Shown here: positions 39,874 to 46,576 of the stretch, in pieces | How positions within the stretch are numbered: position 1 is the first letter of the stretch | Layout: every line of letters begins with the position of its first letter | From: Escherichia coli | GTDB lineage: Bacteria > Pseudomonadota > Gammaproteobacteria > Enterobacterales > Enterobacteriaceae | Direction: 5' to 3' (one strand) | DNA: 64,000 nt | Assembly: GCF_003991155.1 (NCBI RefSeq) | Contig: NZ_CP031293.1 | Position numbers and translations under genes: made by a program | The notes under the pieces: model-generated | Databases searched by the model: none | Told to the model about the DNA's origin: nothing | The model's input: only the letters and a program-made list of their open reading frames with translations

Positions 39874-40508
39874 TGTTTTGCCGCCTTGATGAGAGTGGTT
39901 TTCACCGGGAAATAATCCGCGCCAATATACTGTTCCGACTGGCGAATTTGCCCTTCGCTGTCGATCCAATAGCGGTTATGCCAGCGCGCCTGGTCAGTGA
40001 AGACTTCTTCGTCCAGCACGCGAACCGGGGTTTCATCGCTGCCGACTTTGACGGTATCGGTGCCATTCCATTTGAAGACTGAGCGCGCGGTGGCGTAGCG
40101 TACCTGCTGGTACTCGGTCCAGCCCATCGTGCGCGTCCAGGTTGCACCATCAATGATTTGTGCGGGTTTAATCAGCGGGTCGGTGGCAAGGTTATTCACT
40201 TCAATCAGGTTGTCGCCGCCAAGCAAAGTCTTCACCAGACGACCATGTTGTGTGACAAGGGTGGCCTGATCCTGAGTGACCCATTTTTGTTGTCCGTCTT
40301 CAGCGAAGGCCAGCACCACAAATAACTGCGGCCCGCCATTAAGCTGCATGTACTGGCTGGCGTAGGGCATATTTTGAATATCATCGTCCGTCAGCTGTAC
40401 GCCTGGCGTACCGAACAGACTGTCCCACAGTGAATTGCCCAGCTCTTTAGTCGTGGCTGAACAGGCCTGTAAAAGCAGGCAGATAAGAATGAGTGCAGGT
40501 CGCTTCAC
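39870..40508 (-). CDS. yjbF: Lipoprotein YjbF
   Basis: Lipobox LLQAC; GTG at 40508 gives about 212 aa. Confidence 0.85.
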   Translation of the reverse strand: MKRPALILICLLLQACSATTKELGNSLWDSLFGTPGVQLTDDDIQNMPYASQYMQLNGGPQLFVVLAFAEDGQQKWVTQDQATLVTQHGRLVKTLLGGDNLIEVNNLATDPLIKPAQIIDGATWTRTMGWTEYQQVRYATARSVFKWNGTDTVKVGSDETPVRVLDEEVFTDQARWHNRYWIDSEGQIRQSEQYIGADYFPVKTTLIKAAKQ

Positions 40509-40621
40509 GACTCTTCTCCAGAGGGGCAGAATAACCACACCGGAGTGTGGTTATGGTAAATCCCTTCATACTTCAAGCCACAGATGCGATGACTCGAATT
40601 ATTTTGGGGATACATACTTTA

Positions 40622-40864
40622 TTACTGGGTACTGGTGGTCGTGGTTGTGGTGGTCCCGGTATTAGAACCATCACCGCCACCGGTTGCCGCGAGCGCGACA
40701 CCCACCGCCGAGCTTACGGTGCTGACGCTGGTCGCGGAGGAACTCCCCGCCGAAACCGACGTTGCTGCCGACCCTGCCGCTTCGCCCACCTGTACAGGTG
40801 CAGCCCACGCAGAAGTCGCCGCAAGCGCAGATATGGCAAAAATGCCATACAGAACTTTTTTCAT
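40622..40864 (-). CDS. yjbE: Secreted Gly/Ser/Thr-rich protein YjbE
   Basis: 80 aa; signal peptide then low-complexity sequence including a poly-Thr run. Confidence 0.85.
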
Positions 40865-41177
40865 AACAATTTCCCTTCATTGAATGAATGGAGATTTACC
40901 CAAAAACATTTCGGGCGGGATCGAGTATACACAACTAAAGCATGCGAATTACGGCGCGGGTAATTAGTGATGGGGTTTTAGGATAATTGGAATGAATATC
41001 AAATATAAGCTTCATCTTATATATAAATAAGATTAAAAATCAAAAAGTTAAAATAAAATCAGAAATAATTAACCTACGTATTTTCCGAAATAAACCGTGA
41101 TTAAAAATCTATTTTAGGATTAACCTCACGGTATGATTTCCGTTAAATCACAGACAAGAGGATTTATCTGATAAAAA

Positions 41178-41205
41178 ATGCCGACATAACGTCGGCATTT
41201 TTATT
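41178..41205. terminator. Rho-independent terminator downstream of pgi
   Basis: atgccgac / gtcggcat hairpin flanked by A- and T-runs. Confidence 0.8.
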
Positions 41206-41217
41206 AAGGTTATTTAA

Positions 41218-42867
41218 TTAACCGCGCCACGCTTTATAGCGGTTAATCAGACCATTGGTCGAGCTATCGTGGCTGCTGATTTCTTTGTCATCTTTCAGCT
41301 CTGGCAGAATACGGTTCGCCAGCTGTTTACCCAGTTCCACGCCCCACTGGTCGAAGGTGAAGATGTTCAGGATCACGCCCTGAGTAAAGATTTTGTGCTC
41401 ATACAGCGCAATCAACGCACCCAGGCTGAACGGAGTGATTTCACGCAGCAGGATGGAGTTGGTCGGGCGGTTACCTTCGAACACTTTGAACGGCACCACG
41501 TAGTCAAGCGTTGCCGGATCTTTACCCTGATCGCGATATTCCTGCTCAACCACTTCGCGGGATTTACCAAACGCCAGCGCTTCGGTCTGAGCAAAGAAGT
41601 TAGACAGCAGTTTCTGGTGATGATCAGAGAGCGGGTTATGGGTGATAGCCGGAGCGATGAAATCGCACGGTACCATTTTGGTTCCCTGGTGGATCAGCTG
41701 ATAGAACGCGTGCTGACCGTTCGTACCTGGTTCACCCCAGATAATCGGGCCAGTCTGGTAATCCACAACCTTACCGTTACGGTCAACATACTTACCGTTG
41801 GACTCCATATTGCCCTGCTGGAAGTACGCCGCGAAACGGTGCATATACTGGTCATAAGGCAGAATCGCTTCAGTTTCCGCGCCAAAGAAATTGTTGTACC
41901 AGATGCCAATCAGCGCCAGCAGTACAGGCAGGTTTTTCTCGGCAGGCGTGGTGGAGAAATGCTTGTCCATCGCGTGTGCGCCAGAAAGCAGTTCAACGAA
42001 GTTATCAAAGCCGATGGAGAGAACAATCGACAGGCCAATCGCTGACCACAAAGAGTAACGACCGCCGACCCAGTCCCAGAATTCGAACATGTTGGCAGTA
42101 TCAATACCAAACTCGCCAACGGCTTTGGCGTTGGTGGAAAGCGCCGCAAAGTGTTTCGCAACGTGTTTCTCATCACCTGCCGCTTTCAGGAACCAGTCAC
42201 GCGCGCTATGGGCGTTGGTCATGGTTTCCTGAGTGGTGAAGGTTTTAGATGCTACCAGGAACAGCGTGGTTTCCGGGTTTACTTTTTTCAGCACTTCCGC
42301 GATGTGAGTCCCATCGACGTTAGAAACAAAGTGCATGTTCAGGTGGTTTTTGTATGGACGCAGTGCTTCAGTCACCATGTACGGGCCGAGGTCAGAACCG
42401 CCGATCCCGATGTTCACTACGTCAGTGATTGCTTTGCCGGTATAGCCTTTCCACTCACCGGAAATAATCGCTTCCGAGAAGGTTTTCATCTTCTCCAGCA
42501 CCGCGTTGACTTCCGGCATTACGTCTTTGCCATCAACCAGAATCGGGGTATTGCTACGGTTACGCAGCGCTACGTGCAGCACGGCGCGGTTTTCAGTGCG
42601 GTTGATCTTCTCGCCAGAGAACATCGACTTAATCGCGCCCGCCAGATCGCACTCTTTCGCCAGATCCTGTAATTTCGCCAGCGTCTCTTCAGTGATGCGG
42701 TTTTTGGAGTAATCCACCAGCATCTGATCGTCGAAGGTTGCGGAGAACTTAGAAAAACGATCGCCGTCTTTAGCAAAAAGATCGGCGATCGTAACGTCTT
42801 TCATTTCATCGAAGTGTTTCTGTAGTGCCTGCCAGGCAGCGGTCTGCGTTGGATTGATGTTTTTCAT
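41218..42867 (-). CDS. pgi: Glucose-6-phosphate isomerase Pgi
   Basis: ATG at 42867 gives 549 aa starting [15 protein letters not shown]. Confidence 0.97.
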
Positions 42868-44795: not shown

Positions 44796-45143
44796 TTACG
44801 AATTACTGCGGCGCTGTTGCTTTTCCGCATGTACGCGTTTCACAATCTTATAAATCCATTGCAGCGTCAGATTATATTTCTTCGCTAATTCGGCGTAGTT
44901 GCGCCCATCGCACTCGCTATAGATTTGGTAGTCACGCTCCGATGCTCGTCCGGAGATCCCCTTAGGGAAATAAATGCTTTGTCCGCCCCAGTTACGCATC
45001 ATTCGGTCGGCAATGGCAAAGCCCACATTTTCTGCCGATGAACTGTCGAGATTGATGCTTTCAATCAGAACTTGCGATGCATGAAAAGCCAGGTCGTTAA
45101 TGATCTCCGGTGTCCGGGCCATCTCTTTTGATTTTCGTATCAT
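44796..45143 (-). CDS. Mor/C-like transcriptional activator (Mu middle/late activator family)
   Basis: 115 aa with C-terminal HTH (ELAKKYNLTLQWIYKIVKR), resembling the Mor/C family; transcribed divergently from the lysis/tail genes. Confidence 0.7.
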   Translation of the reverse strand: MIRKSKEMARTPEIINDLAFHASQVLIESINLDSSSAENVGFAIADRMMRNWGGQSIYFPKGISGRASERDYQIYSECDGRNYAELAKKYNLTLQWIYKIVKRVHAEKQQRRSNS

Positions 45144-45364
45144 TTTTCATCTCCATATATCTTGCATCCTGAATAAGACCCGATGCGTGTAAAACCACGG
45201 ATATACGCTAAGCAGTTGTCATTACTGCTACTCAATACATTCAACAAACAAATAAACAATTAACAAAAATATAAATTTTTAATATTAATGAACGCCATAA
45301 ATTCATGAAATAGATATATTGTTTGCGTTATGTTTCTTGTCAACAGGTGTATCATTTTACACGA

Positions 45365-45384
45365 TACTGTATACACATACAGTA
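45365..45384. promoter_or_regulatory. LexA-box-like palindrome in the island control region
   Basis: tactgtatacacatacagta, a perfect CTGT-N8-ACAG with TA-rich spacer; flanked by the inverted repeat ttttacac / gtgtaaaa. Confidence 0.6.
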
Positions 45385-45680
45385 TTATTTTTACTTGTAG
45401 TGTAAAAAGATCGTTTCCCTCACAGTCGCTGACTTTCTTAAACAAACTTTAAAAATCAAATAACTACTGACTATTCCTACGATTCACCATCATCTTTTCC
45501 CTGCATAATGACGCGCTTATTCGCGAGGTCACCTTTTGCTCTTTAATTGCTGAGTGGATTTATTAGCGGGCATGTTCATTTATAGAGAATCTATTTTTTA
45601 AACTTATTTATTAAAGCTTTTTTCATTCTTCACTGGCGGGTTCTGGCGACACTAAACGCTCACTTATCAGGAGATACCGT

Positions 45681-45968
45681 ATGAAAAAAGTCACTCTTCC
45701 CCGGCTTTCCGGTTGGCTGGTCGCTTCCGTCGCGCTGTTTGTCGTGATCGGCTGGACCTCTTCAGCACAAATCCCGGTCGTCATTTATAAACTAAGCCTG
45801 GTTTCGCTTTCCGCGGTGCTGGGATACTGGCTCGATCGCAGTTTGTTCCCCTGGGCACGGCCTGACTCTTTTTGCCCCTGGAAGGAACCGCGTTGCTGCG
45901 CGGCGGCAATGATTCGCCGGGCTATCATCGTTGCTGCCGTCTGCCTTTCCGTCGCGTTAGGGCTATAG
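45681..45968 (+). CDS. Small membrane protein, putative holin
   Basis: 95 aa with 2-3 predicted TM segments; AGGAGA RBS; first gene of the lysis cassette. Confidence 0.5.
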   Translation: MKKVTLPRLSGWLVASVALFVVIGWTSSAQIPVVIYKLSLVSLSAVLGYWLDRSLFPWARPDSFCPWKEPRCCAAAMIRRAIIVAAVCLSVALGL

Positions 45969-45970
45969 TG

Positions 45971-46576
45971 ATGTGGCTGAAATATATCGCGTCTATGATT
46001 ATTTTCGTTCTTTTCCCACTCAACGCCTCTGAACCGCCGAGAGCCTCTCTGGCATGGCGAAACGAACTAATTCGTACAGCTCGAGAAGTCTGGGGGCTGA
46101 ATGCCCCAGTGGCCGACTTTGCCGGGCAATTACACCAGGAGTCCGCCTGGCAGCCAATGGTACGTTCCCCCGTTGGCGCACAAGGTATGGCGCAATTTAT
46201 GCCTGCTACAGCGACATGGATAAGCCAGTTGTATCCACAATTGCGTGAAAACAAACCGTATAACCCAACCTGGGCGATTCGCGCGCTGGTGCAATATGAC
46301 CAGCATTTGTGGAAAAACATCTCTGCGAAAAATGATTGTCAGCGTATGGCGTTTACCCTAAGCGCCTATAACGGCGGTCAGGGGTGGGTTAACCGGGATA
46401 AAAAACTGGCTGCATCCAAAGGGTTAGATGCCACTAGCTGGTTTGGTCATGTTGAGCAAGTCAACGCCGGGCGCAGCGCCACGAACTGGCGAGAAAATCG
46501 TCGCTATCCAAAGATGATCCTCTATCAACATGCCGCCCGCTATTTACTCTGGGGACAGGCAAGCTGTCTTCATTAA
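45971..46576 (+). CDS. Lytic transglycosylase-type endolysin with N-terminal signal/SAR segment
   Basis: ATG at 45971; hydrophobic N-terminus MWLKYIASMIIFVLFPLNA; SLT-domain catalytic region (LHQESAWQP, AYNGG). Confidence 0.75.
   Translation: MWLKYIASMIIFVLFPLNASEPPRASLAWRNELIRTAREVWGLNAPVADFAGQLHQESAWQPMVRSPVGAQGMAQFMPATATWISQLYPQLRENKPYNPTWAIRALVQYDQHLWKNISAKNDCQRMAFTLSAYNGGQGWVNRDKKLAASKGLDATSWFGHVEQVNAGRSATNWRENRRYPKMILYQHAARYLLWGQASCLH

What the first reader, a model, noticed from the sequence alone, without database searches (positions are those of the whole stretch)
40622..40864. YjbE carries a low-complexity Gly/Ser/Thr tract with a poly-Thr run
The secreted 80-aa protein ends in a [19 protein letters not shown] tract encoded by a repetitive GC-rich DNA stretch. 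Such tracts are prone to slippage and may vary in length between strains.
Basis: seen in the sequence. Interest (0 to 1): 0.2.

Follow-up and report, generated by a model that had tools for sequence, protein, structure and literature searches.

The report
Conserved seven-threonine tail of YjbE
The Gly/Ser/Thr tract is real, but it is the best-conserved part of a known small E. coli exopolysaccharide-operon protein: about 98% of strains and many related genera keep exactly seven threonines, so it is an ordinary annotated feature and not a hypervariable repeat.

Summary
Window 40622-40864 (- strand) encodes the 80-aa YjbE (Pfam PF11106), first gene of yjbEFGH, and it ends [19 protein letters not shown].

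The Thr run is an imperfect repeat (ACC ACC ACA ACC ACG ACC ACC).

Among 5,420 complete E. coli genomes that carry the gene:
- about 5,315 (98.1%) have T7
- 85 have T9
- 18 have T5
- one has T12
- one has a frameshift

No single-codon length variants were found. All changes are consistent with slippage between ACCACN hexamers or ACCACC repeats. All 22 metagenomic E. coli copies are T7.

Across species the signal is conservation. All 79 Enterobacteriaceae loci read have exactly seven Thr, written in 49 different codon strings. That scan required at least six Thr, so it informs length only from six upward. In a search that did not use the tail, 15 of 41 divergent homologues have TG followed by exactly T7, and none has TG-T6, T8 or T9. 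Identical codons are more interspersed than chance.

The tail is therefore a selected, fixed-length protein motif. Its role is unknown. My inference is that it docks onto, or accepts glycan for, the YjbFGH export machinery.

Low interest; already-known gene.

The parts
40622..40864 (-). yjbE coding sequence (80 aa plus stop), first gene of yjbEFGH
   Evidence: ORF. Pfam PF11106 YjbE, E=5e-33, 113.6 bits against a cutoff of 27.9. Annotated 'exopolysaccharide production protein YjbE' in 5,420 RefSeq E. coli genomes.
40802..40864 (-). Predicted Sec signal peptide (aa 1-21, [21 protein letters not shown], cleavage AWA|AP)
   Evidence: Sequence features read directly. Kyte-Doolittle maximum 1.65-1.79. 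AlphaFold2 helix at residues 2-17. A-x-A|[AD]P is conserved in homologues. This is a prediction only.
40682..40735 (-). Gly/Ala/Val/Ser hydrophobic segment (aa 44-61, [18 protein letters not shown]) directly before the tail
   Evidence: Residues 52-61 are about 100% conserved in the 59 species loci of 80 aa. Hydropathy (19-residue window) is 1.24 in E. coli and 1.9-2.2 in Erwinia and Pantoea homologues and in GfcA. Low-confidence AlphaFold2 helix at 34-61.
40625..40681 (-). C-terminal tail [19 protein letters not shown] (aa 62-80), the reported tract
   Evidence: Invariant or nearly invariant in 79 species loci. It is the best-conserved block in alignments of homologues at 41-57% identity.
40634..40654 (-). 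Seven-threonine run, ACC ACC ACA ACC ACG ACC ACC, which reads as ACC + (ACCACN)x3
   Evidence: This is the site of every length variant found: T5, T9a/b, T12 and a 19-nt frameshift allele.
40619..40624 (-). Tandem stop codons TAA TAA
   Evidence: Read from the sequence.
40531..40554 (-). Conserved intercistronic hairpin AUAACCACAC-UCCG-GUGUGGUUAU in the yjbE-yjbF spacer. This is context, not part of the tract.
   Evidence: The spacer folds at -37.3 kcal/mol, z=-3.35. The stem is invariant and the loop is U[U/C/G]CG in 6 other genera. It is not a U-tract terminator.
37040..40508 (-). yjbF, yjbG and yjbH, the downstream operon partners (lipoprotein, GfcC-like protein, two-barrel outer-membrane protein)
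   Evidence: Pfam PF11102, PF20616+PF06251 and PF06082. RefSeq annotation of the same genes.

Best explanation
The tract is the conserved C-terminal signature of YjbE. YjbE is the small, signal-peptide-bearing, low-complexity first product of the Rcs-regulated yjbEFGH exopolysaccharide operon.

Shown here:
- The tail ...[19 protein letters not shown]7-ST[Q/R] is under purifying selection at the protein level, and that includes the number of threonines.
- The DNA encoding it is an interrupted repeat whose codons are more mixed than chance.
- Rare in-frame alleles arise by slipped mispairing between the ACCACN hexamers (T5, T9) or between the ACCACC repeats 15 nt apart (T12).
- Together these alleles stay at about 2% in E. 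coli and were not seen fixed in any other species examined.

Inferred, not shown:
- A hydroxyl-rich tail of exact length sits directly after a Gly/Ala/Val hydrophobic segment, and a comparable arrangement (same order of parts, an interrupted Thr tail) occurs in GfcA, the first gene product of the paralogous gfcABCD set. I therefore take the tail to be a fixed-length interaction element.
- Its most likely role is a docking or recognition strand for the YjbF-YjbG-YjbH outer-membrane machinery, whose YjbH N-terminal barrel is of the FapF type. A second possibility is that it accepts glycan or polysaccharide that is then handed to that machinery.
- Strict length conservation favours steric docking over a simple acceptor or spacer role.
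For: Identity:
- PF11106 hit, with YjbF/GfcC/YjbH domains downstream.
- Present in 5,420 of 5,426 complete E. coli genomes.

Population (5,420 genomes):
- With a 99-bp T7 query the identity bands were 3265 / 2052 / 103.
- With a T9 query they were 31 + 54 T9-class and 18 in the 80-90% band.
- With a synthetic T5 query, 20 records fell in the 95-99% band. All 20 were listed: 18 T5, one T12, one frameshift. 85 fell in the 80-90% band.
- These numbers are mutually consistent and exclude T6 and T8.
- Alignments show the alleles directly.
- 22 of 22 metagenome matches have the T7 span.

Species:
- 79 of 79 loci from about 20 Enterobacteriaceae genera have exactly T7, in 49 distinct 21-nt encodings.
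- Residues 52-77 are about 100% conserved, against 0.4-0.9 for much of the N-terminal part.

Tail-blind searches:
- phmmer over 1.84e9 representatives and a profile of residues 1-61 only.
- 15 of 41 divergent homologues have TG followed by exactly T7; none has TG-T6, T8 or T9.

Codon mixing:
- The mean longest identical-codon run is 2.31, against 2.88 +/- 0.11 in within-tract shuffles; 0 of 5000 shuffles reached the observed value.

Paralogue:
- GfcA ends ...AANDSGDGGSHNTSTTTSTTR. This tail is conserved in E. albertii-type GfcA, while the N-terminal Thr-rich part of GfcA varies.

Literature:
- yjbEFGH is paralogous to gfcABCD.
- The YjbH/GfcD N-terminal barrel is FapF-like (PMC8346858, PMC9603273).
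- GfcA has been proposed as a Ser/Thr-rich carrier exported via GfcD (PMC8592465).
Against: - The cross-species scan used the peptide pattern [NS]TGTTTTTT. Six of the seven Thr were therefore required by construction, and species with shorter or interrupted tails were invisible. Only the seventh Thr, the absence of an eighth, the flanks and the third codon positions were free to vary.
- In the tail-blind sample, 26 of 41 homologues (for example the Pantoea type ...STSTTTATTPGK) lack T7, so the motif is not universal in PF11106.
- Four YjbE homologues with the T7 tail lie far from any yjbFGH (P0058, P0060, P0123, P0106), as does one Pantoea-type homologue without it (P0110). Adjacency therefore gives no support for a YjbFGH partner in those lineages.
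- The topology of the tail is unresolved. If the hydrophobic segment is a transmembrane helix after signal-peptide cleavage, the tail would be cytoplasmic and could not reach YjbH.
- AlphaFold2 gives no confident structure (mean pLDDT 56).
- No experiment on the tail was found in the searchable literature.
- The T5, T9 and T12 alleles persist in natural isolates, so they are not strongly deleterious.
Confidence: 0.7

Rival explanations
1. One reading: the tract is a slippage-prone simple-sequence repeat whose length varies between strains, giving contingency-like variation in a surface or secreted protein.
For: - Length alleles T5, T9 (two sub-alleles) and T12 exist, all located in the run and all explicable by repeat-mediated slippage.
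- T5 sits on two different flanking haplotypes. T12 sits on a haplotype identical to several T7 copies. This implies several independent events.
- A second, divergent yjbE-like subfamily, named from Kosakonia in two of its clusters, shows T5, T6 and T8.
Against: - Only about 1.9% of 5,420 genomes differ from T7, and 22 of 22 metagenomic copies are T7.
- The repeat is imperfect (78% matches, TRF score 30).
- There are no one-codon alleles, and no on/off frameshifting apart from one copy annotated as a pseudogene.
- Length is invariant in 79 species despite 49 synonymous encodings.
- Codons are more interspersed than chance.
Confidence: 0.1
2. The tail is a functionless low-complexity by-product of the protein's Ala/Ser/Thr/Gly composition, kept only by shared ancestry.
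For: - The whole mature protein is low-complexity: T13, S12, A11, G9 and V7 of 59 residues.
- AlphaFold2 predicts no fold.
- GfcA is described as natively unstructured (PMC8346858).
Against: - Third codon positions in the run are heavily diversified (49 encodings in 79 loci), yet the seventh Thr and the flanks, which the search did not ascertain, never change.
- Homologues with only 41-57% overall identity keep TG-T7-[S/N/G]T.
- A run of 7 or more Thr is very unlikely from composition alone (7e-5).
Confidence: 0.07
3. The selected feature acts at the translation or RNA level. In this view the run of Thr codons just before the stop, followed by conserved spacer hairpins, works as a leader-peptide-like sensor that couples Thr-tRNA supply or ribosome pausing to yjbFGH expression or mRNA stability.
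For: - Seven Thr codons end 9 nt before the stop codon.
- The spacer folds strongly (z=-3.35).
- It contains a hairpin that is invariant across genera.
- yjbE mRNA is reported to be more stable than yjbFGH mRNA (Ferrieres 2007, as cited in PMC8208086).
Against: - No terminator-like site is present.
- The ORF is 80 aa with a signal peptide, unlike 14-30-aa leader peptides.
- The neighbouring non-Thr residues GGGDGSNTG are equally conserved.
- The T7 tail is kept in stand-alone homologues that have no downstream yjbF.
- The Thr codons use different tRNA isoacceptor classes interchangeably.
Confidence: 0.05

Closest known systems
YjbE family (Pfam PF11106), first gene of the E. coli yjbEFGH exopolysaccharide operon (Ferrieres et al. 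2007)
   Same: It is this protein. The full-length HMM match covers 1-79 of 79. The pgi-yjbEFGH synteny and RefSeq annotation agree.
   Different: Nothing differs for the window allele. The rare T5, T9 and T12 alleles are minor variants of it.
GfcA (YmcD), 'threonine-rich inner membrane protein', first gene of the group 4 capsule operon gfcABCDE-etp-etk
   Same: - Same position, upstream of paralogous B/C/D genes (PMC11494523).
- Same build: signal peptide ending A-x-A|AP, a T/S/A/G-rich stretch, a Gly/Ala/Val hydrophobic segment, then a tail ...GDGGSHNTSTTTSTTR, compared with ...[17 protein letters not shown] in YjbE.
- The tail is conserved among GfcA homologues.
   Different: - No significant sequence similarity beyond the signal peptide (BLASTP E=65; hhalign aligns residues 1-26 only).
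- No Pfam hit.
- 101 aa, with a long and variable N-terminal Thr-rich region and a longer hydrophobic segment.
- The Thr run in its tail is interrupted.
- Present in only 3,659 of 5,426 genomes.
Simple-sequence contingency loci (phase-variable genes with intragenic repeats, as in Neisseria, Haemophilus and Campylobacter; from established knowledge)
   Same: A short-unit repeat lies inside a coding sequence of an envelope-related gene, and indels arise by slipped-strand mispairing.
   Different: The repeat here is short and imperfect. The changes are in-frame (6 or 15 nt). Variants are rare (about 2%). Length is conserved across genera.
Ser/Thr-rich O-glycosylation acceptor or linker regions of secreted bacterial proteins (from established knowledge; proposed for GfcA in PMC8592465)
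   Same: A hydroxyl-rich, disordered tail on an exported protein encoded in a polysaccharide-export operon.
   Different: Such linkers usually tolerate length change, whereas this one is fixed at 7. No O-oligosaccharyltransferase is linked to yjb. The modification has not been tested.
ThrL-type leader peptides (thr operon attenuator; from established knowledge)
   Same: A small ORF with a run of Thr codons close to its stop, followed by RNA hairpins and then the operon genes.
   Different: YjbE is 80 aa with a signal peptide. No terminator or anti-terminator pair is present. The motif is conserved at the protein level, including its non-Thr residues.

Membership tests
YjbE (PF11106) | Match to the family HMM above the gathering score | tested here: met
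   113.6 bits against a cutoff of 27.9, E=5e-33, covering 1-79 of 79.
YjbE (PF11106) | First gene of a yjbE-yjbF-yjbG-yjbH cluster next to pgi | tested here: met
   PF11102, GfcC N and C domains and PF06082 lie downstream on the same strand, with pgi upstream. The RefSeq layout is the same.
YjbE (PF11106) | Small exported protein with an N-terminal signal peptide | tested here: inconclusive
   The sequence fits a Sec signal (MKK, hydrophobic core, AWA|AP; hydropathy). No dedicated predictor or experiment was available.
Simple-sequence contingency locus | Long perfect tandem repeat of a short unit | tested here: not met
   TRF gives 78% matches and score 30. The longest identical-codon run is 2.
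Simple-sequence contingency locus | Frequent repeat-number differences between strains | tested here: not met
   About 5,315 of 5,420 genomes are T7, and 22 of 22 metagenome copies are T7.
Simple-sequence contingency locus | Repeat changes switch the reading frame on and off | tested here: not met
   The variants are +6, -6 and +15 nt, all in frame. The single frameshifted copy is annotated as a pseudogene.
GfcA-like first-gene products of gfcABCD/yjbEFGH-type operons | Detectable sequence homology to GfcA | tested here: inconclusive
   BLASTP is not significant. hhalign gives 94.6% probability but aligns only the signal peptide. The tail resemblance is by eye.
GfcA-like first-gene products of gfcABCD/yjbEFGH-type operons | Encoded immediately upstream of GfcB/YjbF, GfcC/YjbG and GfcD/YjbH paralogues | tested here: met
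   The paralogy is stated in PMC11494523 and PMC8346858.
O-glycosylated Ser/Thr acceptor region | Covalent glycan on the Ser/Thr residues | not testable with these tools
   This needs mass spectrometry or glycan staining of YjbE.
Leader-peptide transcription attenuator | Short leader ORF whose regulatory codons overlap alternative hairpins that end in an intrinsic terminator | tested here: not met
   The ORF is 80 aa. No terminator-like site lies in 40400-41250. The conserved hairpin lacks a U tract.

The most novel reading that the evidence does not exclude
The TG-T7-ST tail is a fixed-length functional module of a wider family of small exported Gly/Ala/Ser/Thr proteins, some encoded in yjbEFGH and some stand-alone. 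It could be a seven-residue threonine strand that docks into, or is threaded through, the FapF-like barrel of YjbH/GfcD-type two-barrel outer-membrane proteins. Alternatively it could carry the otherwise uncharacterised yjb polysaccharide as a protein-linked glycoconjugate. In either case changing the number of threonines would abolish function.
Probability: 0.2. Interest if true: 0.5.

Novelty: already known. Interest (0 to 1): 0.2.

Why it matters
YjbE and GfcA are the only wholly uncharacterised components of two E. coli polysaccharide-export gene sets. Mutations in yjbEFGH repeatedly give mucoid, predation-resistant or sedimentation-resistant E. coli (PMC8540638, PMC8117528).

Knowing that the tail, and not the rest of this 'unstructured' protein, is what selection preserves, down to the exact number of threonines, tells an experimenter where to mutate first.

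For genome annotation the message is cautionary. A homopolymeric amino-acid run is not by itself evidence of hypervariability.

Beyond that the finding is a routine feature of an annotated gene.

Tried and rejected
- Exact-sequence look-up of the 80-aa and 82-aa proteins found neither in the collection.
- The first word-indexed homologue search returned mostly truncated or frameshifted fragments and not the main cluster.
I repeated it with 7 closer sequences.
- A promising lead failed. The 'yjbE insertion (+9 bp)' in a mucoid lab-evolved clone (PMC8540638) is an IS1 insertion 3 bp upstream of yjbE with a 9-bp target duplication (PMC6754418, supplementary table 5). It is not a tract expansion.
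- AlphaFold2 with a 28-sequence alignment gave mean pLDDT 56 and pTM 0.23. I ran no fold search because the matches would be meaningless.
- The YjbE-GfcA comparison by BLASTP and hhalign showed no homology beyond the signal peptide.
- Ferrieres et al. 2007 is not held in the library.
- The promoter and terminator scan of 40400-41250 found nothing.
- The antisense ORF 40635-40883 (+), with its mirror poly-Val, was dismissed as a mechanical consequence of ACN repeats (GTN on the other strand). It has no independent support.
- I did not type the sequence types or phylogroups of the T5 and T9 genomes. The count of independent events rests on a few flanking haplotypes only.

Full report
**What is there**

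The window is an E. coli chromosome segment carrying lysC, pgi and yjbEFGH.

It ends [19 protein letters not shown] and is followed by two TAA stops.

It matches Pfam PF11106 (YjbE) over the model's full length: 113.6 bits against a cutoff of 27.9. The three genes downstream match YjbF/GfcB, the GfcC N and C domains, and YjbH.

The same 401-bp stretch is present in 5,420 of 5,426 complete E. coli genomes. It is annotated there as 'exopolysaccharide production protein YjbE'.

The tract is not a composition accident. A run of 7 or more Thr appeared in 7e-5 of shuffles of the protein.

At the DNA level the Thr run is ACC ACC ACA ACC ACG ACC ACC (40634-40654). This is best read as ACC followed by three ACCACN hexamers. 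TRF scores it at the minimum threshold I set, with 78% matches. GC content is 0.60 against 0.50 for the window.

'Repetitive' is true only in a weak sense.

**Does the length vary between strains?**

With a query of that length, the identity bands separate the length classes.

| Query | >=99% | 95-99% | 90-95% | 80-90% |
|---|---|---|---|---|
| Window allele (T7) | 3,265 | 2,052 | 103 | 0 |
| Natural +6-bp allele (T9) | 31 | 54 | 5,317 | 18 |
| Synthetic -6-bp allele (T5) | 0 | 20 | 5,315 | 85 |

All 20 records in the 95-99% band of the T5 query were listed and inspected.

The three sets of numbers agree with each other: 103 = 85 + 18, 5,317 = 5,315 + 2, and 85 = 31 + 54. They leave no room for T6 or T8.

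Fetching and aligning representatives shows the alleles directly:
- T9a: ACC ACC ACA ACC ACA ACC ACG ACC ACC
- T9b: as T9a, but with ACA in place of ACG. Both T9 forms give the 82-aa protein WP_021575443.1.
- T5: ACC ACC ACA ACC ACC (78 aa, WP_000757332.1)
- T12: one genome, a 15-nt duplication between the two ACCACC repeats (85 aa, WP_195706902.1)
- A 19-nt tract in one genome, annotated as a frameshifted pseudogene

An independent exact-pattern scan of metagenome contigs allowed 9-39 nt between the flanks. It found 22 matches, all with the T7 span.

Flanking haplotypes give some indication of how often these events happened:
- T5 sits on two different backgrounds.
- T12 sits on a background identical to several T7 copies.
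- T9a, T9b and the frameshift allele sit on one closely related background.

That implies a handful of independent slippage events, not a hot spot.

But about 98.1% of genomes share one length. Changes come in steps of two or five codons and never one.

**Across species the signal is conservation**

A scan of one genome per species returned 80 loci from about 20 Enterobacteriaceae genera.

All 79 loci that could be read have exactly seven Thr, written in 49 different 21-nt codon strings. Residues 52-77 ([26 protein letters not shown]) are about 100% conserved, while much of the N-terminal half scores 0.4-0.9.

There is an important caveat. The scan's seed pattern was [NS]TGTTTTTT, so six Thr were required by construction. 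T6, T8, T9 and longer were admissible and none was found. Shorter or interrupted tails could not be seen.

I therefore ran two searches that did not depend on the tail:
- phmmer of YjbE against 1.84 billion cluster representatives
- a profile built from residues 1-61 only

These gave 41 full-length divergent homologues from Erwinia, Pantoea, Kosakonia and unnamed sources. Of these, 15 have TG followed by exactly T7, at only 41-57% overall identity to the E. coli protein where that was aligned. None has TG-T6, TG-T8 or TG-T9. The remainder carry a different, interrupted Ser/Thr/Ala tail, such as the Pantoea type ...STSTTTATTPGK.

Within the T7 runs, identical codons are more interspersed than chance. 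The mean longest identical-codon run is 2.31, against 2.88 +/- 0.11 when each tract's own codons are shuffled, and 0 of 5,000 shuffles reached the observed value. The encodings are phylogenetically related, so this is descriptive. It points towards avoidance, or rapid loss, of slippage-prone perfect repeats. That is the opposite of a contingency locus.

**What it is and how it probably works**

YjbE has four parts:
- A predicted Sec signal peptide with cleavage at AWA|AP.
- A mature chain of 59 residues made almost entirely of T, S, A, G and V.
- A Gly/Ala/Val hydrophobic segment. Its hydropathy is borderline for a membrane helix in E. coli (1.24) and clearly hydrophobic in homologues and in GfcA (1.9-2.2).
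- The tail.

AlphaFold2 gives only low-confidence helices and a coil tail (mean pLDDT 56). This agrees with the literature description of GfcA as natively unstructured (PMC8346858).

GfcA is the first gene product of the paralogous gfcABCD set. It has the same build and ends ...GDGGSHNTSTTTSTTR. That tail is conserved in GfcA homologues while the N-terminal Thr-rich region varies. Homology between YjbE and GfcA beyond the signal peptide could not be shown.

The literature places yjbEFGH under Rcs control and links it to an uncharacterised exopolysaccharide (PMC8117528, PMC8208086). It identifies the N-terminal barrel of YjbH/GfcD as FapF-like (PMC8346858, PMC9603273). It also speculates that GfcA might be a Ser/Thr-rich carrier exported via GfcD (PMC8592465).

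What I consider shown is that the tail is a selected protein motif of fixed length.

My inference is that it is an interaction element of the export machinery. Docking or recognition is more likely than glycan acceptance, because an exact length is kept.

Several points weaken this inference:
- The tail's side of the membrane is unknown.
- Four T7-tailed homologues (P0058, P0060, P0123, P0106) and one Pantoea-type homologue (P0110) are stand-alone genes with no yjbFGH within 4.5 kb.
- No experiment addresses the tail.

**Rivals**

- A contingency-repeat reading fails on repeat perfection, on variant frequency and on reading-frame behaviour.
- A 'neutral low-complexity' reading fails on the synonymous-versus-amino-acid contrast and on conservation in distant homologues.
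- A leader-peptide or RNA-level reading is suggested by a strongly folding spacer (z=-3.35) that holds a hairpin invariant across genera. It is contradicted by three things: no terminator is present, the adjacent non-Thr residues are equally conserved, and the tail is retained in stand-alone homologues.

**Dead ends**

The reported '+9 bp insertion in yjbE' in a mucoid evolved clone (PMC8540638) is an IS1 insertion 3 bp upstream of the gene (PMC6754418 supplement). It is not a tract change.

**Verdict**

This is a real feature, correctly described, in a known and annotated gene. The slippage idea is right about mechanism for the roughly 2% rare alleles and wrong about the tract's character.

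Low interest. The useful by-product is that the seven-threonine tail is the part of YjbE that selection protects.

Noticed in passing
window 40509-40621 (- strand); hairpin at 40531-40554: The yjbE-yjbF spacer folds strongly (-37.3 kcal/mol, z=-3.35). It contains a 10-bp hairpin, AUAACCACAC-UNCG-GUGUGGUUAT, whose stem is invariant and whose loop is U[U/C/G]CG in Kosakonia, Siccibacter, Atlantibacter, Phytobacter, Leclercia and an uncultured genome. It has no U tract, so it is probably an mRNA-stabilising or processing element, which would fit the reported excess of yjbE mRNA over yjbFGH mRNA. There is no covariation, so the structure is unproven.
   Followed up: partly
window 40555-40621 versus L003:1573-1635: E. 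coli has two forms of the yjbE-yjbF spacer. The window has a 113-nt form with an extra upstream hairpin of about 50 nt, which gives a weak sub-threshold isrH-like Rfam match at 40562-40608. Strain EC-1639 has a 63-nt form, like other genera.
   Followed up: partly
window 41061-41209 (+ strand): There is an Rfam STnc430 sRNA match above the gathering score (85 bits against 47). It lies in the AT-rich (GC 0.31) pgi-yjbE intergenic region, on the strand opposite both genes.
   Followed up: no
L004:1665-2684 (strain EC25); literature on the K-12 locus: The yjbE region appears to be an IS1 target. IS1A sits inside yjbE in a human gut isolate. In laboratory evolution, IS1 landed 3 bp upstream of yjbE and inside yjbF and yjbH (PMC6754418 supplement), and between yjbE and yjbF (PMC8117528). 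The laboratory insertions gave mucoid or non-sedimenting cells.
   Followed up: partly
Four of the five still carry the TG-T7 tail. In two Erwiniaceae loci the gene follows the same pair of small ORFs: an 'MPR..EIPIAF' protein and a UmuD/S24-like fragment. In L112 this pair lies next to phage-tail-like genes.
   Followed up: partly
proteins P0066, P0100, P0101, P0062: There is a second, divergent yjbE-like subfamily, named from Kosakonia in two of its clusters. Kosakonia also has the canonical T7 gene, for example at L073. In this subfamily the Thr run does vary: T5, T6 and T8.
   Followed up: no
L031:9440-9745: The paralogue gfcA is accessory, present in 3,659 of 5,426 genomes against 5,420 for yjbE. 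In a spread sample of 40 records it showed no length differences, despite its even more Thr-rich sequence. In K-12 an IS1D sits immediately upstream of it.
   Followed up: partly
window 44796-46576: Mu-like prophage genes lie next to lysC: a Mor transcription activator (44796-45143, -), a holin (45681-45968, +) and an SLT transglycosylase (45872-46576, +).
   Followed up: no
window 40635-40883 (+ strand): An 82-aa antisense ORF mirrors yjbE and begins with poly-Val. This is because ACN repeats read as GTN on the other strand. I judge it a mechanical artefact.
   Followed up: no
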